Shown piece by piece: positions 365-19,551 of a DNA stretch of 20,000 nt. The notes beneath the pieces are model-generated. The model saw only the letters and a list, made by a program, of their open reading frames with translations, was not told the origin of the DNA and ran no database searches. The stretch spans positions 109,460-129,459 of the IMG/VR virus record IMGVR_UViG_2811995017_000004; one strand, written 5' to 3'. Both the position numbers and the translations under genes were made by a program. The DNA is from an uncultured virus (IMG/VR IMGVR_UViG_2811995017_000004) (lineage: Duplodnaviria; Heunggongvirae; Uroviricota; Caudoviricetes). How positions within the stretch are numbered: position 1 is the first letter of the stretch; every line of letters begins with the position of its first letter.

Positions 365-619
365 ATGTGGAGTACAAATGTGTATGGCACTATTATTCTT
401 ACCGTTTCGCGCAAAACAGCAGCTTCAAGCAAATGTTTAGCAATACTGGATTCATACTATGCCATATCCGATGACAGAGTTGATTTAACAGAGTTAACTT
501 TGCTTCACCAAAATGGAAAAGTTCTAGGGACTGTAAAGATTCACAATATCGATTTAAGATGGAATGGTTTTTGTTCTAAGTTCAAAAGTGGAGATGTAAA
601 CTGTGGCAGTAATAATTAA
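365..619 (+). CDS. Hypothetical protein (84 aa)
   Basis: ATG with GAGAGG upstream. First ORF after the promoter and overlaps the next ORF. No family recognised. Confidence 0.5.
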   Translation: MWSTNVYGTIILTVSRKTAASSKCLAILDSYYAISDDRVDLTELTLLHQNGKVLGTVKIHNIDLRWNGFCSKFKSGDVNCGSNN

Positions 620-2060
620 TCAATTTGTTAAAGTCCGAGCAAGTAACAGAAACAAAACTTATTATGCCAATTTGGGTTATACGCCAAATGAAAAACAAGA
701 ATTCAAAATCCATTTAAAAGATCTCCCATTATCGAGTCCTTCTGAGGTTAAAATTGTATGTGATTATTGTAATAAATGTTCAAGTAAACCCTACAAAAAT
801 ATTTCTAGTCAAAAAAACCATTTTTGTTCACGAGAATGTGCTAACAATTTTCTAATAGGTAAACCTTCGTGGAATGCGAGGCTAATACATATTAAATGCT
901 CAGAATGTTCAAAAGATATTATAAGATCTGAATGGGAAACTAAACAGCATAAAAACCTTTTTTGCAGTAGATCTTGTGCAGACAATTTCATGAGAAGGAA
1001 TAGAAAAGGAAAACTGAAAGTAAAACGATATGAATTAAAATGCTCTTTCTGTAATGCGACTATTGAAAGAACAGAAAATGAGTTAAAAAGAGCTAAAAAT
1101 CATTTTTGCTCTCAAAAGTGTTTGAGTGAATTCTCTAAAGGTAAGCCGAAAAATACTAAAGAAAAGATAAAGAAACTATGTCACAATTGCAATAAGCCAA
1201 TATACATGACTCCATATAGAGCTTTACAAAGTAAACGAACATTTTGCTCAAGAAATTGTCGTTCTAGTTGGATGAGAGAGTCAGATGAGTACAGAAAAAT
1301 TGTTTTTAAAGGAAAAAGCGTGGAGCTTACATGCTCTAATGAATCATGTAACAAAACATTCACTCGGAAATTTTCTGAACTAAAAGAAAAGAATTTTTGC
1401 TCTATGGAGTGCGCAAAATCACTCAAAAAACTATCCTTTATAAGGAATAATCCTAATCCAAAGAAAGAAAAAATAAGTGTCAGCTGCTATACATGTGGTG
1501 CTGGTAAAAAGGTACATGAGAGTGTTTTTAAAAAGAATAAACATTTTTTCTGCTCCTATGACTGCTACCATCAAAAAAGACTTGAAATTACTGAAAAGAA
1601 AGTTACTTTGACTTCAATTCATAAAAAAATAAATAGGCTCTTGAATGAATGTGAAATAGAACACATCAATGAAAAAAACATTGGATATTTTTCATTGGAT
1701 ATATATCTACCTGAACATAAACTAGCCATTGAAGTTATGGGAGATTATTGGCATGGACATCCACAAAGGTACAATTTCAATAGTCTCAATAACATTCAAA
1801 AAAAGAACATCAAAAGAGACTACAGAAAGAACAGATATATCACAAAGAATGGCATAGTAATTCTCTACCTTTGGGAGAACGATATAAATCAAGATTTTGA
1901 GTTGTGCAAACAGCTTATTTTGAAATTTATTTCAAAAAGAGACGGTCTTCAAAATTTTCATAGTTTCAATTGGGCACTCGACAGTAATTCAAAAATAGTT
2001 TTACGAACCGAACTTTTTTGTCCCTTTTTTGATTATTTTCAAGGAGATGAACAAAAATGA
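603..2060 (+). CDS. Putative endonuclease: six Cys4 Zn-ribbon repeats plus a C-terminal Vsr/DUF559-like nuclease domain
   Basis: Six CxxC...FCSxxC units: CDYC/FCSREC, CSEC/FCSRSC, CSFC/FCSQKC, CHNC/FCSRNC, CSNESC/FCSMEC, CYTC/FCSYDC. C-terminal LDIYLPEHKLAIEVMGDYWHG...KRD..K......G..ILYLWE.DI matches the Vsr/DUF559 pattern. Very Lys-rich. Confidence 0.8.
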   Translation: MAVIINQFVKVRASNRNKTYYANLGYTPNEKQEFKIHLKDLPLSSPSEVKIVCDYCNKCSSKPYKNISSQKNHFCSRECANNFLIGKPSWNARLIHIKCSECSKDIIRSEWETKQHKNLFCSRSCADNFMRRNRKGKLKVKRYELKCSFCNATIERTENELKRAKNHFCSQKCLSEFSKGKPKNTKEKIKKLCHNCNKPIYMTPYRALQSKRTFCSRNCRSSWMRESDEYRKIVFKGKSVELTCSNESCNKTFTRKFSELKEKNFCSMECAKSLKKLSFIRNNPNPKKEKISVSCYTCGAGKKVHESVFKKNKHFFCSYDCYHQKRLEITEKKVTLTSIHKKINRLLNECEIEHINEKNIGYFSLDIYLPEHKLAIEVMGDYWHGHPQRYNFNSLNNIQKKNIKRDYRKNRYITKNGIVILYLWENDINQDFELCKQLILKFISKRDGLQNFHSFNWALDSNSKIVLRTELFCPFFDYFQGDEQK

Positions 2061-2396: not shown

Positions 2397-5300
2397 TTGA
2401 GCCAACAGTTGAAAATTGTAGTTACTCCAGTTGCCGACACCTCCGCTCAATCAGTTGAACAAATTAACAAGCAACTTAAAACACTACAATCTAAGTTAAA
2501 CTCCCTTCAGCTCCAAACAAATATTGATGCTTCTGCTTTAAAAACCCTCAAAGAATTCTCTTCTGCAATTGAAACATATCAAAAAAATCTTAAGAATTAC
2601 AATCAGACAGTTAAAGAAACACAAACGGTCATTAAGAATGCTGATGGGACAACTGAAAAAATCATTCAGCAGCACAAAAAGAATGGAGAAATACTTCAGC
2701 GAGAAATTAAGACGATTGATAATCGAAATCAAAAGATTCGTCAAGAAACTCAAGAAACAGCAAAATTAACCTCTGAAATTCAAAAGCTTGGCCAAGCTCA
2801 AAAGATAATTGAACGTCAAAATGCTCAAGGTATCAAGACAGGCACTACTCAAAAAAATCGTGATGGTTTTAAGGATATTACGTACAATCTCGACCAAAAT
2901 GGGAATATTAAAAACTCAACCACTGTAACAAATATTGATCAACAAAGAAAAGCAATCGAACAGCTTAGAGTAAGCCTACAAAGACTAAAAGAGCAAGGGC
3001 AACTGTCTGAAGTCACGCTCTCCTCTCTTGGAAGAAAAATTAATTTAGTTCAGTCTACAGAACAAATTGAAGCACTCAGAGTCAAGCTTAAGACTCTTGA
3101 TGACAAGTCAGCAGCAGTTGCAAAGACTAAAGAGCTTGAAAGGCAGTTAGAACTATATAGAAGACAAGCACAGGTAAATACTCAGAACCTGCAAAACAGA
3201 TACGGCAGCTCATTGAGCAATACAAGTAATCAACAGCTTCAACAGTATTTGAATTCAGTTAATCAATTAACTGCAAGGACACCTAATCTAAGAAATCAGA
3301 TGGCTAGTCTTAATGTGCAGTTTAGGGAAATGTCCTCTAACATTGCTGCTACTACAAGGCAGACAATGAGTTTTGGAGAGCAGCTTCAAGTAGCAATGTC
3401 CCGCGTGCCTGTGTGGATGGCATCTATGACACTTTTTTATGCACCTTTGAGACTGCTTCAAGATCTCACCAGCCAAGTAATATCGCTTGACACTCAAATG
3501 ACTGGCTTACGACGGGTTATGGACTTACCTGATTATAAGTTTAACGAGCTTCTTCAAAAATCTATTGATTTGAGTGATGAGTTAGCAAACAAGACTTCAG
3601 ATGTTCTAACTATAATGAACGAATTTGGGCGTATGGGTTACAAAGATGATGAGCTATTAGATCTAACCAAGACAGCTCAAATGATGGAGAACATTAGTGA
3701 ACTACAACCTGAAGATACCGTTAAAGCTCTCACAGCAGCGATGGTCAACTTCGGAATTCAATCTAAAGACAGCTTAAAAATCGCCGATGCATTGAACGAG
3801 GTTGACAATAATTTCCAAACAAGTACATTGGACTTGGCTCAATCAATGAGAAAGTCAGCTGCCGCTGCAAAAGTATATGGCGTGAGTATGGAACAGCTTT
3901 TAGGATACACAACTGCTATTCAATCTAGTACCAAAGAATCTGGTAACATTGTCGGTAGAATAATTGCTGACATTAAATCTCTTCTGATTGACTTGGAAAT
4001 CCTAACGTTCAGTCGAGGACGACAAGGGGCAAGCGTAATGGTAGCCTGAACGACTGAGTGAAGAGACACAGAAATGTGAAGCGACAGTCTGAACTCTATG
4101 GAAACATAGAGAGTGAGGTTGAAGCGCCTCACCGCCATTTATAATGGTCAGTAGCCTTTTGGTGAAAGTAACAGAATTGAACGCCTTAAAAACAATATTC
4201 GCCAGAATCCAAACAAATGGAGCAGCCATTAAAAGTCTTGAGAGTGTAGGAATTGCAGTTAAAGATGTAGGTGGAGAAGCTATACCTGTATCTGAAATCC
4301 TTGAGAATCTTGCTTCTAAGTGGGACAGTCTCTCTGAGGCACAGAAGCAGCAAATCGGGGTTTCGTCAGCAGGTATGTTTCAAAATACTCGATTAATTAT
4401 AGTCGCCTTATACAGTAATGTATAAGTGAAAACCCAGTGAACCCTATTGCTCAGGGGTGTGTCCTTTTCACAGGATGCTAACGGTGGAACTCTAAGGGAG
4501 AAATCCTATGACAATACCGTGCCAAGCCTATTTTAGGAAGGTGTAACGACTAGCCTAACGGCGTAGAACAGACATTGAGCTACTGTTCAAAGTGCTGGGC
4601 ATCCTTTTAGGATGAAGATATAGTCTAGTCCCCTACTTAAATATCGGGAAACCGAGGGTATAAACGTTTTAGCGCTCATGGAGCAATGGAGTACGGCTAC
4701 CAAGGCCACTACTACTGCAATTAACAGCCAGGGATCTGCAATGCGTGAGCAAGAACGATACTCTGAAAGTTTGGAAGGACGCCTCAACAGATTGTCTGCT
4801 TCTTGGTCAGGTCTTGCAGCAAATGCAGGTGATGCTTTCCTTTCTGATGGAATAATTTCATTTGCCGAAATATTGAAAGATATAGTCCAAGCAGGAGCAA
4901 GCGTAACAAAAACAATTGGATTTTTGCCAAGTGTATTCGCGACAGCATCTGCTGCAATTCTCCTGTTTAATAGCAATCTAAGGTCAACCATGATTCTTGC
5001 CGGATCAAATATGGGAACCGCGTTAAAGTCTCTTATAGCTAATTTTAGTTTGCTCAATGTGGCTTCAACTGGTGCTGCCGCAGGACAGAGAATGCTTGCA
5101 ATTGCGACTAACGTAACTTCTGTTGCAATAACTACATTAGGCAAAGTAACCAAAACAACAATGGCTTTTCTTGCAGGTGCTGTACTGCCTATGGCAGGTT
5201 TCATGGCTTTAGGCTTCGTAATCGAAAAACTTGTCTCTGCTTTTTCTGATGCTAAACAAGAACAAGAAAAGCTTGCAGAGTCACAAAAGAAAAGCGTTGA

Positions 5301-8300
5301 AGCAATAACCACAAATAAAGAACAGACCGATCAGTTAATACAAAAATATAAAGAGCTGCAAAAAGCAAAAGATAATGGCTCCCTCTCCCCTGACAAGGAG
5401 CAAGAATATCTACAGGTCACGCAACAATTAGCACAAACGTTCCCTAATTTGATTTCTGGCTATGACTCCCAAGGTAATGCCATCATTAAAAATAACGAAG
5501 CATTAGAAGATGCCATAAAATACACCAAAGAATTAGCTGAATTAAACAAAAAAGACATTCAAACTGGCGCAAATAGCAACTTTAAAGAAACCCTCAGTGA
5601 TATCAGTAATCTGACTGATGAAATGAAAGAGTATCAAAAAGTTGCAGACCATTATAAAAACAACGATCGGCCATTCTGGGATATCTTCGACAGCGACAGT
5701 GATTATAAAAATTTTGGGATTAAAGCTGAACAACAAGCTCTTCAAGTCAACCAGAAGCTATCTAGCTCACAAGCTAAACTTAGAGAGCAAGTGCTGCAAA
5801 CTGTTGACGCTTATAACTCCATTAAAATCAACCCTCAGTTAACCAAAGATATCAACGAAGCCTTCAATAAAATTGACTTTAGTAAGATGACTTCTGATGA
5901 ATTAGAGTCGTTTTCCATTAATGTTTCAAAATACATGGATGACATTCAGAAAGCATTGGAATCAGGGAATAAAGTTGATTTCTCAAGAGCATCTCAAGCA
6001 CTTCAGAATTTAATTAACCAACAAATCAAAGGTTCTGATGAAGCTGACAAACTTTCCTTATCTTATGATGACCTAAAGAATGCTATAGACTCTACAAAAA
6101 ATGCTGCTGATTCTGCAAAGGTCACTTGGGATGAAAATGGTGAAGGGGTAAACGAATTAACAGGAGAAGTCGAAGATTTAAGTCAAAAGCTCAAGGATGC
6201 TAAAGGCGATCTAGAGGCAATAAAAGCTGTAATGGACGATTTGGTGGCTTCTCAGCAAACAGAACTAGCTATTTCTGCCCTTCAAAATGAAGCATATGAT
6301 TCTTTTGCTGACTCCATCTCCCCTCTCAATGAACTGCTTGAGAAAATGGCTGAAGGAAAAAGCATCTCAGCTGCTGAAGCAATGAAACTGGTTCAAAAAG
6401 AAAAAGACTTGGCTGGAGCTATTAGTGTTGAAAACGGCGTAGTTAAATTAAACCGAGATGCTATCATAAAACTACGTGATGCAAAACTTAAAGCATACAA
6501 TGATATGCAAAAGTCAGTTAAACAGGATCTAATCAACCAGGCAAACGCAACAGTAAAGAAAATAAAGAACTATGGTTTAGAGGTCAAATCAATCCAGACT
6601 GTTGCCGATGCGCAAGCCAACCTTTCCAAAATGAGAAAACAAGTAGACACTTTGATGGAAAGTGGCAATATCCAGATGGCAATGCCAATCATTAAAGAAA
6701 TAAACGAGTTGAGCGACGTCACTGGACAGTTAGAAGATCTGGATAAAATGGCTGAATTGGCCAACTCATCTTTAAATGAAGTTGGTACGTCCCTTGAGAA
6801 ATATTCTGATGAACAAGAGAAAGCCAGCAAAGAAACTGAGAAATCCAAATACGTCATTGATAAATATAAAGAAGCCCTTGAAAAAGTAAATGCAGAAATT
6901 GAGAAATACAACAAGCAAACCAATGATTATCCTAAATGGTCACAAAAATACAGAGACGCAATCAATAAGGAAATCAAGGCATTAGAGCGTAAGAAAAAGC
7001 TAATGCAAGATCAGATTAAACTGCTGAAACAGCAAATCAAATCTGGTTATATTCCTCAAACTGGACTTGTTACCTCCTCTTCCTCTTCTGGTTCTTCATC
7101 AGGATCATATTCTTCTGGAGGATCATATTCCGGAAAATACTCTTCTTATATTAATACTGCAGCAAGCAAATATGGTGTTGACCCTGCACTAATCGCTGCG
7201 ATTATTAAACAAGAATCAAACTTCAATGCCAAAGCTCGTTCTGGCGCTGGAGCAATGGGTTTGATGCAACTCATGCCTGGTACTGCAAAAAGTCTAGGTG
7301 TAAACAATGCATATGATCCTTATCAAAACATCATGGGCGGTACAAAATATATCGCTCAAATGCTCAATAAGTTTGGCGGCAACATTGAAAAAGCATTGGC
7401 TGCTTACAATTCGGGGCCAGGAAACGTTATTAAATACGGTGGCGTCCCTCCTTTCAAAGAAACACAAAATTACGTTAAGATCATTCTTTCCAACTACAAT
7501 AAGAGCTTATCTACTGCGACATCAAAAATTGCTAATTACTACACCAGCGCGAATGGATTTAGAGTAAGCTCAAAATTTGGACAAAAAGAAAGTGGTCTCC
7601 GCTCCTCCCCTCATAAAGGATTAGACTTAGCAGCTAAAGCAGGTACTCCTGTTAAAGCTTTAAAAGCTGGTAAAGTCATAACCGCTGCCTATTCTAAAAC
7701 AGCAGGCAACTGGGTTGTCATTCAACAGGATGATGGAACAGTTGCAAAATACATGCACATGCAGAAAGGTCTTAAAGTCAAAAAAGGCGATGTTGTTTCT
7801 GCTGGTCAAACAATAGGTAAAGTTGGAAGCACTGGACATTCAACAGGAAATCACCTTCACTTACAGATTGAACAGAACGGAAAACCAATCGATCCAGAAA
7901 AGTATATGAAAGGTTTGACGTCTGACCTATCTCAATCTGAAGCCGAAAGACAACAGGCTATTGCTCAAGCAAAGTCTGATCTAATCGGCTTACAAGGTGA
8001 TTTGGACTCAGTAAATGATCAGATCCAAGAACTTCAATATGAATTAGTTCAATCTAAGCTCGATGAATTTGATAAGCGTAAATCAGATTTGGAAGTTAAG
8101 ATTGCTAAAAACGAATCCTTAGCTAAACACTACCTCACCGACAGCAAAGAATTCCGTAAATACACTAACGAGCAAAAGAAAGCTGTTGATGAGCAGCGGA
8201 AAATTCAACAGGAAAAGCTCAATTGGATTAACAAAGAGCTTAAAACAAACAAAAAGCTCAACTATGCTCAACGTGATCAGCTTAGAGAAGAACTGAAACA

Positions 8301-9606
8301 GGCCAAATTAGATTTAATCTCCCTTGAGGATCAAGTCAGAGAGCTACAAGGTCAGCTTGTTCAATCTAAAGTTGATCAAGTACTCAACAACATCGAGAAA
8401 TCAGTCAAGAAAACTGAGGGTAAGCTTAAAGATGTTGATATCAAGATTCAGATGACTGAGGATGACAATCAAAAAGTCAAATACTACAGTCAGCAAGTAA
8501 AATTGATTCAACAGCAACAAGCTGAAGCCAAAAAGTACATCAAACAGCTTGAGGAACAGAAAAAGGCAGCTAAAGGTTTTCCTGATATCCAGAAACAAAT
8601 CACAGAGGAAATTGAAAACTGGAAAGATAAACAAAAGGACTACAACCTTGAGCTTTATAACACCAAGAAGTCCATTAAGGATATTTACAAATCACTTGCA
8701 GATGAAGTCGTTTCTATTTATAAAGAAATGTACGAAAAGATGCGTGATATTGAACTTGAAGCCCATCGAAAAGCAACTCAAAACATCATTGATGAAATTG
8801 ACAAAGAAGACGATGAAGCCAAGTTCCAGAAGTCCCTTAAAGAGAAACAGGAATCCATTCAGGAAACAAAAGATCAAATCAATAAGCTGTCTTTAGATGA
8901 TTCTGATGAAGCCAAAGCAAAATTAAAGGATTTGGATAAACAGCTTCAGGAACAAGAGCAAGACCTTGAAGAGTTTCTGAAAGATCGTGAAAACACGAAA
9001 CGAAAGGAAGCACTCCAAGATCAGCTTGAAAAAGATGAAGAATCAATCAACAAAAAGTATGATGACCTTGTTAATGATGATCGAGCCTTTAAGGAACTTG
9101 AGAAAAAACTTTTGGATGGTAAGATAACCGATATTGCTAAACAGCTTAATGAATTCACTAAGTTCATCAACAGCAACATGGATTCCATCGGTAAGAGTAT
9201 TTCAAACAACCTTATCGATAAACTTAAAGAAGCTTCCAATGCTTTAAATGTCGTGATTGCCGGAAATAAAACTGGCAAGAAGGTTTCCTCTTTTGATGTT
9301 GGTGGGTATACCGGAAAATGGGGAAGCTCAGGAAAGCTTGCTATGCTTCATGAGCAAGAGCTTGTATTGAACAAATCTGATACAAGCAATGTCCTGAAAA
9401 TTGTTGAGCTGACTAGAAACATCTTCGGAGACATTCCAACAAAAGCTACGCTCCCTTCCCCTTTTACTGCACCTAATCAAACGACAAGCAATCAAACAAT
9501 CAATATTAACTTTAACGTGGATAAAATGACTGGTTCTAAGGCTGATGCAGAGAAATTCTTAGGAGAAGTGTATAACATTGCATCAGCTAGAGGAGTGAAA
9601 ATTTAG
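2397..9606 (+). CDS. yomI: Tail tape measure protein with SLT lytic transglycosylase and M23 peptidase domains (CwlP/YomI-like); spliced join(2397..3956,4180..4393,4667..9606), 2237 aa
   Basis: TP901-type TMP core ([17 protein letters not shown]). SLT motifs [25 protein letters not shown] (~7140-7500). M23 motifs HKGLD, YMHM, HLHLQ (~7560-7910). Splicing joins [17 protein letters not shown] and QNTR-F-LALME. Exons total 1560+214+4940=6714 nt, i.e. 2238 codons. TTG start with SD AAAGGATGTG. Confidence 0.92.
3957..4179 (+). ncRNA. Group I intron 1 in the tape measure gene (223 nt, no internal HEG ORF)
   Basis: Exon ends in U3956 and intron ends in G4179. P1: UGUCGGU pairs with GCUGACA (3966-3972), giving U.G at the splice site. 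P3 UCUCUUC(3978-84)/GAAGAGA(4060-66). P7 GACUG(4052-56)/CAGUC(4085-89). P8 CACA-GAAA-UGUG. P9 CUCUAUG-GAAA-CAUAGAG. Confidence 0.88.
4394..4666 (+). ncRNA. Group I intron 2 in the tape measure gene (273 nt, IA-like, no internal HEG ORF)
   Basis: Exon ends in U4393 and intron ends in G4666. P1 CGAU/GUCG(4402-05) with U.G. P2 CUUAUACA-GUAA-UGUAUAAG. P3 CCCAGU(4433-38)/GCUGGG(4594-99). P7 GACUA(4548-52)/UAGUC(4621-25) with J8/7 GAAGAUAUAGUC. Two hairpins between P7 and P3' (P7.1/P7.2). P8 CAUCC/GGAUG. Confidence 0.92.
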
Positions 9607-13895: not shown

Positions 13896-16460
13896 ATGAA
13901 TTATTTAAAATATTATGATCCACTCTTGGAAAAGTGGGTCTCTATTGAACTTGAAGCAATAAGCTCAGACGGGGAAAGATGGACAGCCCCAATGATTACA
14001 GAAAAATTTAAAGAAGTATTAGGCAATATCGGCGACGTTAAACAAGATATCATCAATGTCAAAATTGAATTTCAAAAAGAAATCACCAATGTTTCGGATA
14101 AGATCAGCAACGTCGAAAAGATTATTGGTGATGTATCAAAGTTTAAGGTTATTGGTGACACCCTAGTTGATAAAATCATTAATGAATTCAATATGAGAAG
14201 TGTTAATGTTAAAGATTTTGGAGCAAAAGGAGACGGAGTAACTGACGATACCGCTGCGTTTGAGAAAGCTATAGGAAGTGGATTTTCAAGTATTTACGTT
14301 CCTGATGGCACATACATGGTCAAAGGAGTTAAACTTCCCTCTTTCACAAAACTTTATGGCAATGGTATGAAGTCAGTGATCAAACTTCATCCTGATACCC
14401 CTCCTACTACACATGTCATTACAAACAAAGATTATACAAATGGTAACTCATATATCCAGATCGAAAATCTGCTTGTTGATTGGAATTTAAATAAAAAAGA
14501 CAACAAGATTGGATCGGGGCCAAATGCAAGCTGCGTAAACATCACTAACAGTCAATTTGTTTGGATTAATAAAGTTCACGCAAAAGATGCTGGTCTTCAT
14601 GGTTTTGATGTCACCTCTCCAAAGTACAACTCTTCCTCAGATGGTGCTGAATACTATCAGCCTAAAGGTTCCAAGTACGTTTGGATCGACAATTGTACAG
14701 CTTGGAACTTCGGGGATGACGGGTTCACAACTCACTTTTCTGACTACATTTTCTTTTCAAATTGTTATTCATATGATGGAAATGGTTCGGCTCACCGTGC
14801 TGGAGGCAGTAACACAAATGGTTTTGAGATCGATGATGGTTCTAAACATGCATGGCTTATGAACTGTCATAGTAGAAAAAATTGCAGAGGTTTTGAAGTA
14901 AAAGCGCACGCTTTAGCACCTGCAGCCCAAGATGTTCATTTTGTAAATTGTTCCTCTGAGAATGATATTCGAGGCTTTGACTTCAGACATATTGGATTCC
15001 ACCGCGCTTCAGATCCAGTTTCAAAAAGTGCTTTTAATGTTAGTGCTACAAATTGTAGAGTTCTTAACCCTATTTTCAACAGCTTGTATGAAGGACTGTC
15101 CCCTAGAGCCTTGGTAATCTCCGCATTTCGCAATGTAAATATAAACAACTTCACAGCAATTGGAGATCCCTCTTATGACTACAAAGGAAATCCTGCAATT
15201 GCAACTCAATTTAAATCTAGAAACATTAATTTAAACAATATTTCCGTTTCTGGCTTCAAGACGGCTGAAGCAGACATTTACGTGATCGGAGGAAGTCAAA
15301 AATCTGACAACGTAAATATAAGCAATATCAATTCCTTTGAATCAGCGAGAGTCGGTGTAAGAATCGGCAGCAAAACAGAGAATGTAAAATTAACCAATGC
15401 AAGCTTAATCGGGTATGGTCGGAAAGATAGTGTTGGTGTTTATTGCTCGAATTCTCAAGCTTACATATTTGGAGTCACTGCTGAAAAGTATGGCAAAGCT
15501 TCAACAATCGCTGGCTATGATTACTCATATGTTCCAAACAACTTTAAAGGTGGGACAAGAGCTGCCACTACTTCTGGACATGTTAAAACATCGACGGGTT
15601 TTATCGCCGCTTCTTCAGGTACGCCAGAAGTTACTGGAGAAGCATCTGCAGCTATTGGAACAACTGGAGGAGCAAAGGCTAAAGGAGTTCGAACAGGGGT
15701 TTATTCTTCATCTGGCGGAAGCTCTGTTGATGGTTCCCGTAGCACAGTCATGTCTTCGAATGATTCCCATATTGAAGGTGAAAATGTCTCTAGAACCATT
15801 CTGTCTTCTGGTGGGGTTAAGCTCGGAGCAAATGATCGCTATATGGTTGTTGGCGGATATGGAGAAACCCCTTCACGTTCAAATATAAAGTGGATGCTTA
15901 ACTCTATGAATGGAGACATCTCCGCCACAGGGAAGATCAATGGTGGAGCAACATTCAGTGACTACGCGGAGTATTTTGAAAGCCTTGATGGCAAAAGCAT
16001 ACCTTCTGGAACCATCGTTACCCTTGAAAAAAATAAAATAAGACCTGCTCAAAAATCTGAATTTATGCTCGGCGTTATATCTGAAACAGCAGGAACTGTA
16101 CTTGGAAGCGCTGAGGTTTATTGGAAAGATCGTTATTTAAAAAATGAGTTCGGCGGTCTTATTTATGAAGATGTTCTTGATGAAAAAACAGGCGAATACG
16201 TCAAAATGCCTGTTGAAAACCCTGAATGGAAGTCAAAAAAAGATTATATACCAAGAGAACAAAGACCTGAATGGAATATCGTAGGACTTGTTGGACAGGT
16301 GTATATTCGCATTGATGGAACTGTCGAAGTTGGAGATTGCATTGAAGCAAATAACGGAATAGCTACAAAATCAGAGAACTCCACTTGGAGAGTTATGGAG
16401 ATTACAAAACCATACTTTAAAAAGGATGGATATGGAGTGGCAATTTGCTTTATTAGATAA
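13896..16460 (+). CDS. Receptor-binding appendage/tailspike: pectin-lyase-like beta-helix plus C-terminal peptidase G2 autocleaving chaperone (phi29 gp12-like)
   Basis: VNVKDFGAKGDGVTDDT beta-helix start. FGDDGFTTH, NGFEIDDGS, KAHALAPAA and FRHIG motifs. C-terminal S|DYAEYFES.DG, GVISETAG, LKNEFGG, EW..VGL.GQ and GYGVAI, as recalled for phi29 gp12. Confidence 0.88.
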   Translation: MNYLKYYDPLLEKWVSIELEAISSDGERWTAPMITEKFKEVLGNIGDVKQDIINVKIEFQKEITNVSDKISNVEKIIGDVSKFKVIGDTLVDKIINEFNMRSVNVKDFGAKGDGVTDDTAAFEKAIGSGFSSIYVPDGTYMVKGVKLPSFTKLYGNGMKSVIKLHPDTPPTTHVITNKDYTNGNSYIQIENLLVDWNLNKKDNKIGSGPNASCVNITNSQFVWINKVHAKDAGLHGFDVTSPKYNSSSDGAEYYQPKGSKYVWIDNCTAWNFGDDGFTTHFSDYIFFSNCYSYDGNGSAHRAGGSNTNGFEIDDGSKHAWLMNCHSRKNCRGFEVKAHALAPAAQDVHFVNCSSENDIRGFDFRHIGFHRASDPVSKSAFNVSATNCRVLNPIFNSLYEGLSPRALVISAFRNVNINNFTAIGDPSYDYKGNPAIATQFKSRNINLNNISVSGFKTAEADIYVIGGSQKSDNVNISNINSFESARVGVRIGSKTENVKLTNASLIGYGRKDSVGVYCSNSQAYIFGVTAEKYGKASTIAGYDYSYVPNNFKGGTRAATTSGHVKTSTGFIAASSGTPEVTGEASAAIGTTGGAKAKGVRTGVYSSSGGSSVDGSRSTVMSSNDSHIEGENVSRTILSSGGVKLGANDRYMVVGGYGETPSRSNIKWMLNSMNGDISATGKINGGATFSDYAEYFESLDGKSIPSGTIVTLEKNKIRPAQKSEFMLGVISETAGTVLGSAEVYWKDRYLKNEFGGLIYEDVLDEKTGEYVKMPVENPEWKSKKDYIPREQRPEWNIVGLVGQVYIRIDGTVEVGDCIEANNGIATKSENSTWRVMEITKPYFKKDGYGVAICFIR

Positions 16461-16485
16461 GTCGCTTGGACGATTGGAGGTTCAG

Positions 16486-16644
16486 ATGAATACATTAAGT
16501 TTCTACAACAAAAAGAAAGATAAATGGGAAGACATCTACACTGTTGCGGTCACAGATGGGAAAAACATTCTCACCGCATCTGAATTGTTTGAGAGATTGA
16601 AAACTTTAGAGGATGAAGTTGCTAAGCTAAAAGGTAAGACTTAA
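16486..16644 (+). CDS. Small protein (52 aa) resembling the N-terminus of the upstream appendage protein, with a coiled-coil end
   Basis: SD GGAGG at 16476-80 places the start at ATG 16486, not 16426. Sequence MNTLSFYNKKKDKWEDIYTVAVTDGKNILTASELFERLKTLEDEVAKLKGKT. Confidence 0.75.
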   Translation: MNTLSFYNKKKDKWEDIYTVAVTDGKNILTASELFERLKTLEDEVAKLKGKT

Positions 16645-19126: not shown

Positions 19127-19194
19127 AAATGCTGTACAAAGCGGCTCACTCAAGGGCGGTCTGGCTCACTCCCGATAGAAAGGGGGTGAGAAAA

Positions 19195-19278
19195 ATGTCA
19201 ACTTATCAGAGTTTAACTTTGATGTTTATGTTTGGAATGTTCATTCTGGCATTGTTGACATATCTAAAAAAGAAATAG
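19195..19278 (+). CDS. Type I toxin, BsrE/BsrG/BsrH (holin-like toxin) family, 27 aa; not in ORF track
   Basis: MSTYQSLTLMFMFGMFILALLTYLKKK: one TM helix with a basic C-terminus, close to BsrE/BsrH as recalled (STFQALMLM..FG.FIIALLTYIKKK). Strong SD AAAGGGGGTG. The 5'UTR CTCAAGGGCGGTCT is complementary to the 3'UTR AGACCACCCTTGAG. Confidence 0.9.
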   Translation: MSTYQSLTLMFMFGMFILALLTYLKKK

Positions 19279-19551
19279 ACCACCCTTGAGACCTGGAAAG
19301 TTACAGGGGTAGTCTATTTCAATAGAAAAGACACAAAAGAGCTTTGGCCGCTATTGGCCTGCTTTGTGCGATTGACTCGACTGTTCCCAGCAGTCGGGTC
19401 TTTTTTATTTTATGCATTTTTTCATAAAATAAAACTAATTTGCAATACTTTTGCTTAATAAAATGGCTTATGTTCCATGCTAAGATGTAATGCATTTCAT
19501 TAATCTAACTAATATAACATTATTATGCAGTTTTATTGTGTTGTTGCTTCA
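19266..19551 (-). ncRNA. Putative cis-antisense antitoxin RNA (SR4/SR5-like)
   Basis: Consensus leftward promoter at 19558-19586. A - strand terminator hairpin (AAATAGACCACCCTTG...CAGGGGTAGTCTATTT, 19273-19319) with a U-tract lies over the toxin stop. Convergent overlap with the toxin 3' end. RNA ends are approximate. Confidence 0.7.
19374..19411 (+). terminator. Terminator of the toxin mRNA
   Basis: GACTCGACTGT-tccca-GCAGTCGGGTC followed by TTTTTTATTTT. Confidence 0.85.

What the first reader, a model, noticed from the sequence alone, without database searches (positions are those of the whole stretch)
3940..4690. Tape measure gene split by two tandem ORF-less group I introns around a 214-nt micro-exon
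Seen in the sequence: the three apparent TMP fragments rejoin exactly once 3957-4179 and 4394-4666 are removed. Junction 1 is ...AAC ATT GTC GGT|AAC GCC TTA AAA (NIVG|NALK). Junction 2 is ...ACT CGA T|TT TTA GCG CTC ATG (TR-F-LALM). Both inserts follow a U, end in G, form a P1 helix with U.G at the 5' splice site, and carry complementary P3, P7, P8 and P9 strands. The spliced product is 2237 aa. Established, from recall: SPbeta YomI/CwlP is uninterrupted, of similar length, and reads [17 protein letters not shown] at this position. SPbeta's known introns are in bnrdE/bnrdF. Introns in phage structural genes have precedent (Twort orf142; TMP genes of B. cereus-group prophages), so the class is not new, but a double-intron yomI is unusual. 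Inference: the gene is functional rather than a pseudogene, tail assembly requires two self-splicing events, and automated annotation will mis-call it.
Basis: partly seen in the sequence, partly recalled or inferred. Interest (0 to 1): 0.92.

Follow-up and report, generated by a model that had tools for sequence, protein, structure and literature searches.

The report
Two self-splicing introns in tape-measure gene
The tail-length (tape measure) gene of this SPbeta-like Bacillus prophage is interrupted by two small group I introns that must be spliced out of the RNA to give one 2237-residue protein; the call is right, but such introns in this gene are already known.

Summary
Removing window 3957-4179 (223 nt) and 4394-4666 (273 nt) joins three ORF pieces into a 6714-nt frame. 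It has no stops, encodes 2237 aa and aligns with SPbeta YomI without a gap across both junctions.

Relatives give natural controls. Intron-less alleles read straight through exactly at 3956|4180 and 4393|4667.

Both inserts hit Rfam RF00028, but below its gathering score of 50 bits: 43.3 bits (E 1.5e-9) and 25.3 bits (E 3.7e-4). Both follow a U that pairs with G in P1, end in G, and have P3-P9 with the P3/P7 pseudoknot.

The intron-2 fold is backed by strong covariation: 34 of 74 pairs changed on both sides, 0 of 500 shuffles as good. Intron 1's core never varies, so only 3 pairs covary.

Across 19 contigs, six insertion sites within about 130 codons of the conserved domain carry 0 to 3 introns.

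Splicing itself was not shown. HEG-less group I introns at several sites in prophage tape-measure genes were described in 2008 (PMC2504315), and this scan has met them before in other genomes. Verdict: real, a new member of a known kind, of modest interest.

The parts
2397..3956 (+). Exon 1 of the tape measure gene (TTG start, aa 1-520). It holds PF10145 PhageMin_Tail profile positions 3-131.
   Evidence: The start matches SPBc2 YomI (LSQNLKI against LSQQLKI).
3957..4179 (+). Intron 1, 223 nt, group I, no ORF. P1 3950-3958/3964-3972 (U3956.G3966 at the splice site). No P2. P3 3978-3984/4060-4066. P4 3992-3995/4023-4026. P5 4000-4003/4016-4019. P6 4028-4030/4044-4046. P7 4052-4056/4085-4089. 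P8 4067-4078 (GAAA loop). P9 4094-4111 (GAAA loop). 3' hairpins at 4113-4132, 4135-4147 and 4154-4163. Terminal G at 4179.
   Evidence: RF00028 25.3 bits, E 3.7e-4. Helix coordinates. 97.8% of cells paired, 3 pairs with changes on both sides. MFE z -2.61. Absent exactly here in L012, L018, L015, L019, SPbeta, E3 and L045. No Pfam hit on the overlapping minus-strand ORFs.
4180..4393 (+). Exon 2 (micro-exon), 214 nt, aa 521-591 plus the first base of codon 592. It holds PF10145 profile positions 136-197.
4394..4666 (+). Intron 2, 273 nt, group I, no ORF. P1 4390-4395/4400-4405 (U4393.G4402). P2 4407-4414/4419-4426. P3 4433-4439/4593-4599. Two extra hairpins between P3 and P4 (X 4442-4445/4453-4456, Y 4461-4465/4472-4476). 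P4 4481-4485/4516-4520. P5/P5a 4491-4511, with a near-canonical 11-nt tetraloop-receptor motif (named from recall) and a GAAA loop. P6/P6a 4521-4542. P7 4548-4552/4621-4625. P7.1 4553-4562. P7.2 4566-4588. P8 4600-4614. P9/P9a 4631-4658 (GAAA loop). Terminal G at 4666.
   Evidence: RF00028 43.3 bits, E 1.5e-9. Helix coordinates. Covariation in 34 of 74 pairs, 94.4% of cells paired, 0 of 500 shuffles as good. MFE z -2.57. Absent exactly here in 14 relatives. Homologous to inserts in other phage genes.
4667..9606 (+). Exon 3 (last two bases of codon 592 to the stop), with SLT transglycosylase and M23 peptidase domains, as in YomI/CwlP.
3788..3821 (+). Three intron sites that are empty in the window but occupied in relatives: Z (3788|3789, after aa 464), Z' (3806|3807, after aa 470) and Z'' (3820|3821, inside codon 475).
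   Evidence: Z: L044, L045, L048, L052. Z': Geobacillus virus E3. Z'': L048. Window coordinates were computed from the aa positions.
3906..3907 (+). Empty site A (inside codon 504), which holds a 288-289-nt group I intron in L013-L017 and L019.
   Evidence: That intron scores 102.6 and 92.9 bits on RF00028.

Best explanation
The window is the tail-lysis end of a complete 129-kb SPbeta-like provirus. Its yomI-type tape measure gene (2397-9606) is interrupted by two ORF-less group I introns, 3957-4179 and 4394-4666. They lie in and just after the conserved PhageMin_Tail domain.

Inferred mechanism. On the late transcript each intron folds into the group I core. Guanosine bound at P7 attacks the bond after the U that forms a U.G wobble in P1 (U3956, U4393). 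The freed exon end then attacks after the terminal G (G4179, G4666). The three exons are joined into one mRNA for a 2237-aa tape measure / cell-wall hydrolase.

Neither intron has room for a homing endonuclease. They appear to spread and be lost by recombination between related phages, carrying a little flanking exon with them. The intron-2 lineage has also settled at other sites of the same gene where the 5' exon fits its 4-nt guide sequence.

Shown here: the exact boundaries, the fold, covariation, and presence/absence polymorphism. Inferred: catalysis, splicing in vivo, and the route of spread.
For: (1) Frame and homology. The spliced frame is open for 2237 aa and gap-free against YomI across both junctions. 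PF10145 is cut at profile position 131|136 by intron 1.

(2) Natural controls. Across 19 contigs, alleles lacking intron 1 (7 listed) or intron 2 (14 listed) read straight through the predicted junctions.

(3) RF00028 hits at E 1.5e-9 and 3.7e-4. The copies in L013, L044, L048 and L052 score 25.6-49.5 bits.

(4) Intron-2 family, 6 sequences from 3 sites: 94.4% of 443 cells paired, 34 of 74 pairs changed on both sides, 0 of 500 shuffles as good, slid controls 33-43% paired.

(5) Guide-exon covariation. Exon CGAU pairs with guide GUCG at sites Z and C; exon GGAU pairs with GUCC in E3. All 4 alleles with an intron at C have Arg codon CGA before T, against 1 of 14 intron-less alleles. In intron 1 the outermost P1 pair switches U-A to A-U between the exon and the guide.

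(6) Intron 1 is 89% identical (199/223) in L036 and L037, whose flanking exons are only 59-68% identical. Its core never varies.

(7) Intron 2 is related to inserts that split a terminase, an RNR alpha subunit, a DNA polymerase and other tape measure genes in Enterococcus, Staphylococcus, Streptococcus and Geobacillus phages.

(8) Both RNAs fold better than shuffles (z -2.61 and -2.57). The unconstrained folds recover P1, P3, P8 and P9 for intron 1, and P2, P3, P4 and P8 for intron 2.

(9) The same provirus has two more group I introns above the Rfam gathering score, at 98.3 and 60.9 bits.
Against: Neither intron reaches Rfam's gathering score of 50 bits, so neither appears in a default scan.

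Splicing was not observed.

Intron 1's core helices are invariant in the 5 distinct sequences available, so covariation supports only P1 and one 3' hairpin. My helix model was drawn partly from the same sequences it was then counted on.

Intron 1 has no P2, and its first in-frame stop is 31 codons inside the intron (ORF 2397-4049). Ribosomes could therefore run into the core.

I could find only 1-2 possible P10 pairs for either intron.

Intron 2 has about 38 nt with two hairpins between P3 and P4, where the Rfam consensus has only a short joining segment.
Confidence: 0.9

Rival explanations
1. The inserts are decayed intron relics that no longer splice. The tape measure gene is then a pseudogene and the prophage is tail-defective.
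For: Rfam scores are sub-threshold. Intron 1 lacks P2 and an early stop codon. P10 is weak. No spliced RNA was seen.
Against: All three exons stay open over 6.7 kb and match YomI end to end. The intron cores are conserved far better than the flanking exons (89% against 59-68%). Helices keep pairing through 34 two-sided changes. The exon codon at site C is the one that fits P1 in 4 of 4 intron-bearing alleles. The provirus is rated 100% complete by CheckV's estimate, as shown by the tool.
Confidence: 0.06
2. The three ORFs are translated separately, as a naturally split tape measure protein assembled from 550-, 93- and 1642-aa pieces, and the inserts are merely spacers.
For: ORFs with possible start codons exist at 4144 (ATG) and 4678 (ATG). 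Geobacillus virus E3 is annotated this way, as gp42 and gp43.
Against: The cuts fall inside a single Pfam domain. Site C falls inside a codon. The ATG at 4144 lies within the intron, and the 4678 start would drop conserved residues. The spacers have a conserved ribozyme fold with covariation. Intron-less relatives encode one continuous protein.
Confidence: 0.03
3. The inserts are assembly or chimera artefacts of the metagenome-derived viral record.
For: The record is an IMG/VR provirus of unnamed origin.
Against: The same inserts sit at the same sites in independent records. Intron 1 is found in 10 other contigs and intron-2-family introns in 7. Public runs hold 89-97% of the sampled words of window 3700-4900. 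Contigs of run X16 cross all four borders (table 8).
Confidence: 0.01

Closest known systems
TMP-IVS1, IVS2, IVS3a/b group I introns in tape measure genes of Bacillus cereus-group prophages (Tourasse and Kolsto 2008, PMC2504315; passages read)
   Same: These are group I introns without a complete homing endonuclease gene, inside the prophage tape measure gene. They occupy several sites, with up to two per gene. Similar introns sit at different sites with adapted P1/P10, and different introns share one site. Presence varies patchily between strains.
   Different: The host phages there are lambdaBa01-like and others, with a TMP of more than 1200 aa. Here the host is an SPbeta-like phage with a 2237-aa YomI-type TMP carrying SLT and M23 domains. 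I found six sites and up to three introns per gene in this lineage. Whether any site or intron is homologous to IVS1-3 was not tested, because their sequences were not at hand.
SPbeta bnrdE and bnrdF group I introns (Lazarevic et al. 1998, seen only as cited in PMC8270828)
   Same: Same phage group. They are group I introns in an essential phage gene. This provirus also has one in its RNR large-subunit gene, beside a LAGLIDADG intein.
   Different: The gene is different. SPbeta's own yomI is uninterrupted.
Geobacillus virus E3 tape measure gene, annotated as two CDSs gp42 and gp43 (KP144388)
   Same: A homologue of intron 2 (69.5% identity over 93% of its length) splits the same domain of a homologous tape measure gene.
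   Different: It sits at another site (after EVD, our aa 470), with its guide sequence changed to match (GUCC for exon GGAU). No intron is annotated in the record.
Vibrio phage ICP1 tape measure intron (Barth et al. 2023, PMC10448857; passages read)
   Same: The tape measure gene is interrupted there too, and full-length TMP mRNA is restored by splicing, shown by RNA-seq and RT-PCR.
   Different: The ICP1 insert carries HNH homing endonuclease genes. The two introns here carry no ORF.
Staphylococcus phage Twort orf142 with three group I introns
   Same: Several small group I introns lie close together in one phage gene.
   Different: The gene and phage family are different. Only the 3' 50-odd nt of intron 2 are 96% identical to inserts in Twort-like phages.

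Membership tests
Group I catalytic intron (Rfam RF00028) | Score at or above Rfam's gathering threshold (50 bits) | tested here: not met
   Intron 2 scores 43.3 bits (E 1.5e-9) and intron 1 scores 25.3 bits (E 3.7e-4). Neither appears in the gathering-threshold scan. For intron 2 the model misplaces the 5' strand of P3 because of the insert between P3 and P4.
Group I catalytic intron (Rfam RF00028) | The 5' splice site follows a U that forms a U.G wobble in P1 with an internal guide sequence | tested here: met
   U3956.G3966 lies in a P1 with 7 exon-guide pairs. U4393.G4402 lies in a 6-bp P1 (4 exon-guide pairs plus 2 pairs inside the intron). Guide and exon covary: CGAU/GUCG against GGAU/GUCC in E3, and U-A against A-U in intron 1.
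Group I catalytic intron (Rfam RF00028) | The intron ends in G (omega G) | tested here: met
   G4179 and G4666. All 6 intron-1 homologues in alignment A1 also end in G. In alignment A3, 5 of the 6 intron-2-family rows keep a G in the aligned terminal column and L044_Z does not; L044_Z's boundary is instead read from its raw sequence...TTTCG|AAATT.
Group I catalytic intron (Rfam RF00028) | Core helices P3-P8 with the P3/P7 pseudoknot, supported by covariation | tested here: met
   This holds for intron 2. P3 has 3 of 7 pairs changed on both sides, P4 2 of 5, P7 1 of 5 and P8 4 of 6; overall 34 of 74 pairs, with 0 of 500 shuffles as good. For intron 1 the helices are all complementary (100% paired) but never vary, so covariation says nothing about them.
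Group I catalytic intron (Rfam RF00028) | Precise excision that restores the host reading frame | tested here: met
   In silico only. The spliced frame is open and collinear with YomI, and intron-less alleles are contiguous at the same nucleotides.
Group I catalytic intron (Rfam RF00028) | Guanosine-dependent self-splicing | not testable with these tools
   This needs in vitro transcription with GTP, or cDNA from an induced lysogen. The public RNA runs gave no usable junction.
Mobile (homing) group I intron with its own endonuclease | An intron-encoded homing endonuclease ORF | tested here: not met
   The introns are 223 and 273 nt long. Only chance minus-strand ORFs overlap them, and those have no Pfam family. 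By contrast, the provirus's DNA polymerase III alpha intron region carries a 331-aa LAGLIDADG ORF.
TMP-IVS introns of B. cereus-group prophages (PMC2504315) | Same insertion sites or sequence homology to IVS1-3 | not tested
   Those sequences were not fetched. A BLAST of intron 2 over 401 sampled genomes of the order found only one partial match of 48 nt.

The most novel reading that the evidence does not exclude
The first ~130 codons of the PhageMin_Tail domain in SPbeta-like and related Bacillaceae siphophage tape measure genes form a dense intron landing strip. It has six sites, at least three intron lineages and 11 occupancy patterns in 19 contigs. One endonuclease-less lineage (intron 2) has colonised at least four of these sites (Z, Z', Z'' and C) by matching a 4-nt guide to ...GAU/...GGU exon ends, which would point to reverse-splicing-type transposition rather than endonuclease homing. 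That lineage also carries a two-hairpin domain between P3 and P4, a peripheral element I could not find described.
Probability: 0.2. Interest if true: 0.45.

Novelty: new member of a known kind. Interest (0 to 1): 0.3.

Why it matters
The practical value is for annotation. Gene callers will report this essential tail gene as three ORFs or as a pseudogene; Geobacillus virus E3 is deposited that way. Default Rfam thresholds miss both introns, so tail-length estimates and prophage-integrity calls will be wrong.

Biologically it extends the known habit of endonuclease-less group I introns piling up in tape measure genes from B. cereus-group prophages to the SPbeta lineage. It also supplies a compact natural series of 0-3 introns at six sites, with guide-exon covariation and short co-converted exon tracts. 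That series could be used to study how such introns move without a nuclease of their own. It does not open a new question.

Tried and rejected
RNA evidence for splicing. Public runs were searched and four were laid on window 3600-5000. All are Logan contigs from mixed food or fermentation samples.
- No contig joins 3956 to 4180 or 4393 to 4667.
- Run X1 (an RNA library) has contigs at depth 3-5 that cross both borders of intron 1 unspliced. These may be DNA or precursor RNA.
- One X2 contig skips 4386-4695 with 37 other letters between. It fits an intron-2-less relative of the L014 type, not spliced RNA of this phage.
- The high depth over intron pieces is summed over related introns of other organisms.
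- Nothing can be concluded either way.

The default Rfam scan of the window found no intron.

Intron 1 has almost no relatives in the 50,697 phage records: 2 weak matches in Desulfovibrio phages. A megablast of window 3700-4900 found no phage record covering 80% or more of the query.

Searching papers for a 'P3.1' element gave nothing relevant.

An order-wide BLAST of intron 2 (1 of 401 genomes, a 48-nt match) gave no route to compare it with the B. cereus TMP introns.

Two readings of P3 in intron 2 were rejected. GGAUGC/GCAUCC and GAUGC/GUGCU are not kept in E3, whereas CCCAGUG/UGCUGGG is kept with compensatory changes. A GUGAAAA/UUUUCAC pairing was also rejected because E3 lacks the partner.

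The global alignments of distant loci (L012, L045, and partly L015, L036 and L044) failed or were gappy, and were not used.
Full report
**Context.** The window is the last 20 kb of a 129,459-bp IMG/VR provirus that the tool lists as 100% complete. It is SPbeta-like.
- It carries a BsrG RNA at 19133-19398.
- The tail and lysis genes match YomG/YomH-type domains, a Peptidase_G2 tail spike, an amidase and a holin.
- A gene starting at 2397 matches SPBc2 YomI from its first residues.

**Observation.**
- The ORF list shows the yomI homologue as three pieces: 2397-4049, 4144-4425 and 4678-9606.
- Joining 2397-3956, 4180-4393 and 4667-9606 gives 6714 nt and 2237 aa with no internal stop. The global alignment to the 2285-aa YomI has no gap in either row over aa 460-660. 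It reads NIVG|NALK over NIVG|NSLK, and TRF|LALM over SRF|NAMM.
- Pfam PF10145 (PhageMin_Tail) covers profile positions 3-131 at the end of exon 1 and 136-197 in the 71-residue micro-exon, so intron 1 cuts one domain in two.
- Exon 3 carries the SLT and M23 domains expected of YomI/CwlP.

**Natural controls for the boundaries.**
- Relatives were fetched by protein, by intron BLAST in 91 genomes of the family Bacillaceae, and by a 20-nt core motif in viral contigs. With SPBc2 and Geobacillus virus E3 this gives 19 distinct contigs, the window included.
- A MAFFT alignment and tblastn chaining with the spliced protein show that alleles without intron 1 read ...GTCGGT AATGCC... or ...ACAGGG AACGCA... 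straight through 3956|4180.
- Alleles without intron 2 read ...AGA TTC CTA... through 4393|4667 (one search lists 7 and 14 such alleles).
- So the inserts are discrete elements with exactly the predicted ends.

**Are they group I introns?**
- The default Rfam scan finds nothing here. With E-value reporting, RF00028 matches 4385-4647 at 43.3 bits (E 1.5e-9) and 3935-4111 at 25.3 bits (E 3.7e-4). Both are under the 50-bit gathering score.
- Copies in relatives score 25.6-49.5 bits.
- The intron that occupies a third site in relatives scores 102.6 and 92.9 bits.
- Both inserts follow a U, end in G, and can be drawn with P1 and P3-P9 (coordinates; see the parts list).

*Intron 2.* I aligned six family members from three sites: window and L013 at site C, a divergent one at C in L044, L044 and L045 at site Z, and E3 at Z'.
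- 94.4% of 443 cells pair and 34 of 74 pairs show changes on both sides. 0 of 500 shuffles reach any of the five measures. Sliding the partner by 1-3 columns drops pairing to 33-43% and leaves 2-10 such pairs.
- P2, P3, P4, P5a, P7.1, P7.2, P8 and P9a all covary.
- A caveat applies. I derived the model partly from two of these sequences, which favours it in the pairing percentage. The compensatory changes in the other four sequences are independent of that.

*Intron 1.* I aligned six copies, five of them distinct.
- 97.8% of cells pair, but the core never varies.
- Only three pairs change on both sides: the outermost exon-guide pair of P1 and two pairs in the hairpin at 4113-4132.
- Unconstrained folding gives z -2.61 and -2.57 against shuffles. 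It recovers P1, P3, P8, P9 and the 3' hairpins of intron 1, and P2, P3, hairpins X and Y, P4, P5a, P8 and P9a of intron 2.

**Guide-exon matching.**
- In the intron-2 family the 5' exon CGAU pairs with the guide GUCG at sites Z and C. In E3 the exon is GGAU and the guide is GUCC.
- At site C all four intron-bearing alleles (window, L013, L044, L052) use Arg codon CGA followed by T. Among 14 intron-less alleles the codon is AGA in 9, AGG in 2, CGT in 2 and CGA in 1.
- All six aligned intron-1 alleles have GTCGGT before the intron.
- These patterns are what a functional P1 predicts.

**Anatomy notes.**
- Intron 2 has P7.1 and P7.2. From recall, these are typical of the IA introns of Gram-positive phages.
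- It has a GAAA loop on P9a. The P5 internal loop reads UCUAAG/UAUGA, and CCUAAG/UAUGG in E3, which is the canonical 11-nt tetraloop receptor (motif named from recall). An L9-P5 docking is therefore likely.
- It has about 38 nt with two hairpins between P3 and P4. Hairpin X is kept with compensatory changes in the Enterococcus phage EF1 RNR intron and in L044, by eye. Hairpin Y shows three pairs with two-sided changes.
- The Streptococcus phage MissG1 tape-measure intron has P3 directly next to P4 at the same alignment position, so this is an insertion. It explains why the Rfam model misplaces P3 and scores low.
- Intron 1 is compact. It has no P2 and no P7.1 or P7.2. It has GAAA loops on P8 and P9 and three small 3' hairpins before the terminal G.
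- I found at most 1-2 possible P10 pairs for either intron.
- The first in-frame stop after the 5' splice site is 10 codons into intron 2 (4423-4425) but 31 codons into intron 1 (4047-4049). The 2008 survey reports stops within the first 27 nt as the rule.

**No endonuclease.** The introns are 223 and 273 nt long. The minus-strand ORFs that overlap them have no Pfam family.

**A hot spot, not a one-off.** In our numbering the sites are:
- Z: after aa 464
- Z': after aa 470
- Z'': inside codon 475
- A: inside codon 504
- B: after aa 520
- C: inside codon 592

Occupancy in the 19 contigs:

| Sites occupied | Number of contigs | Contigs |
|---|---|---|
| none | 3 | SPBc2, L012, L018 |
| A only | 2 | L015, L019 (B. 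paralicheniformis KJ-16) |
| B only | 4 | L036, L037, L050, L051 |
| Z only | 1 | L045 |
| Z' only | 1 | E3 |
| A+B | 3 | L014, L016, L017 |
| B+C | 1 | the window |
| Z+C | 1 | L044 |
| A+B+C | 1 | L013 |
| Z+B+C | 1 | L052 |
| Z+Z''+B | 1 | L048, with a 32-nt exon between the first two |

- Eight of these contigs were found with intron sequence, so the share with introns is biased upward.
- In the protein-based fetch, 5 of 7 viral contigs have at least one intron and 4 of 7 have two or three.
- In species-representative genomes, intron 1 matched in 4 of 91 at E<=0.001 and intron 2 in 3 of 91 at E<=1e-6.

**Signs of movement.**
- Intron 1 is 199/223 identical in L036 and L037, where the flanking exons are 59-68% identical.
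- Against L014, the window is 887/891 identical over 3000-3890. It drops to 12/16 and 39/50 in the exon flanks of site A, which is occupied in L014 and empty here. It returns to 219/223 in intron 1, and falls to about 75-80% beyond site C.
- Against L013, intron 2 is 268/273 identical and the next 54 exon bases are 52/54, but 4721-5000 is 219/280.
- This mosaic fits gain and loss by recombination with short co-converted exon tracts. It is an inference; no direction of transfer was tested.

**What is known.**
- Tourasse and Kolsto (PMC2504315, passages read) described group I introns at three sites of prophage tape measure genes in the B. cereus group. These occur up to two per gene and lack complete endonuclease genes. 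Similar introns sit at different sites, and different introns share one site.
- ICP1's tape measure intron has been shown to splice (PMC10448857, passages).
- For SPbeta itself, the review PMC8270828 (passages) names only the bnrdE and bnrdF introns. In the search listing, the SPbeta-relatives preprint 10.1101/2021.11.22.469490 has no occurrence of 'intron'.
- My searches for 'group I intron' with 'tape measure', and for SPbeta/intron/yomI, found no paper on introns in yomI-type genes. Subscription journals are not covered.
- This scan has already reported tape measure genes with two to four group I introns in other genomes, including SPbeta-like ones. I did not test those notes.

**Verdict.** The two inserts are almost certainly functional group I introns (0.9), although splicing itself is unproven. 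They are a new member of a known kind. The combinatorial six-site hot spot, the site-hopping of an endonuclease-less lineage with guide-exon covariation, and the P3-P4 insert are the only points beyond the ordinary.

Noticed in passing
L006:15574-15788 (-), i.e. G000:C1:15574-15788; flanking ORFs L006:12993-15353 and 15776-16504 (-): A third group I intron (RF00028, 98.3 bits) splits the provirus's RNR large-subunit (bnrdE-like) gene. The downstream exon also holds a LAGLIDADG intein. This is the arrangement the SPbeta review describes for bnrdE.
   Followed up: partly
L007:8029-9299 (-), i.e. G000:C1:27029-28299: A fourth group I intron (RF00028, 60.9 bits at L007:8029-8357) lies between two DNA polymerase III alpha fragments. 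It is adjacent to and overlaps a 331-aa ORF with LAGLIDADG and HTH hits, probably an intron-encoded homing endonuclease.
   Followed up: partly
L009:12367-12430 (-) and L010:8377-8441 (+): A Pistol ribozyme (46.2 bits against a gathering score of 34.5) and a DUF3800-VIII RNA (46.0 against 40.2) elsewhere in the provirus.
   Followed up: no
window 19133-19398 (+): A BsrG-family RNA (RF01412, 125.6 bits). From recall, this is the type I toxin-antitoxin locus of SPbeta. It lies downstream of the holin/lysis genes.
   Followed up: no
window 4440-4478: Intron 2 and its relatives (E3, L044, L045, L048, the EF1 RNR intron) carry two hairpins between P3 and P4, where the Rfam consensus and the MissG1 intron have only a 3-nt joining segment. 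I found no description of such an element. It probably causes the sub-threshold Rfam score.
   Followed up: partly
window 3957-4049: Reading on from exon 1, the first in-frame stop is 31 codons inside intron 1, past P3-P6. This is unlike the early stops reported as the rule for Bacillus phage introns, so ribosome entry could interfere with folding.
   Followed up: no
L048:1480-2140 (-): A related 127-kb viral contig has two intron-2-family introns only 32 nt apart (sites Z and Z'') plus intron 1. Its tape measure gene is therefore in four exons, one of them 32 nt long.
   Followed up: partly
L001 (KP144388 31948-39589): The Geobacillus virus E3 tape measure gene is deposited as two CDSs ('N-terminal' and 'C-terminal'). 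The gap between them is a homologue of intron 2, so the record lacks an intron annotation.
   Followed up: partly
window 603-2060 (+): A 485-aa ORF just upstream of the tape measure gene has no Pfam family. It sits where SPbeta has yomK and yomJ.
   Followed up: no
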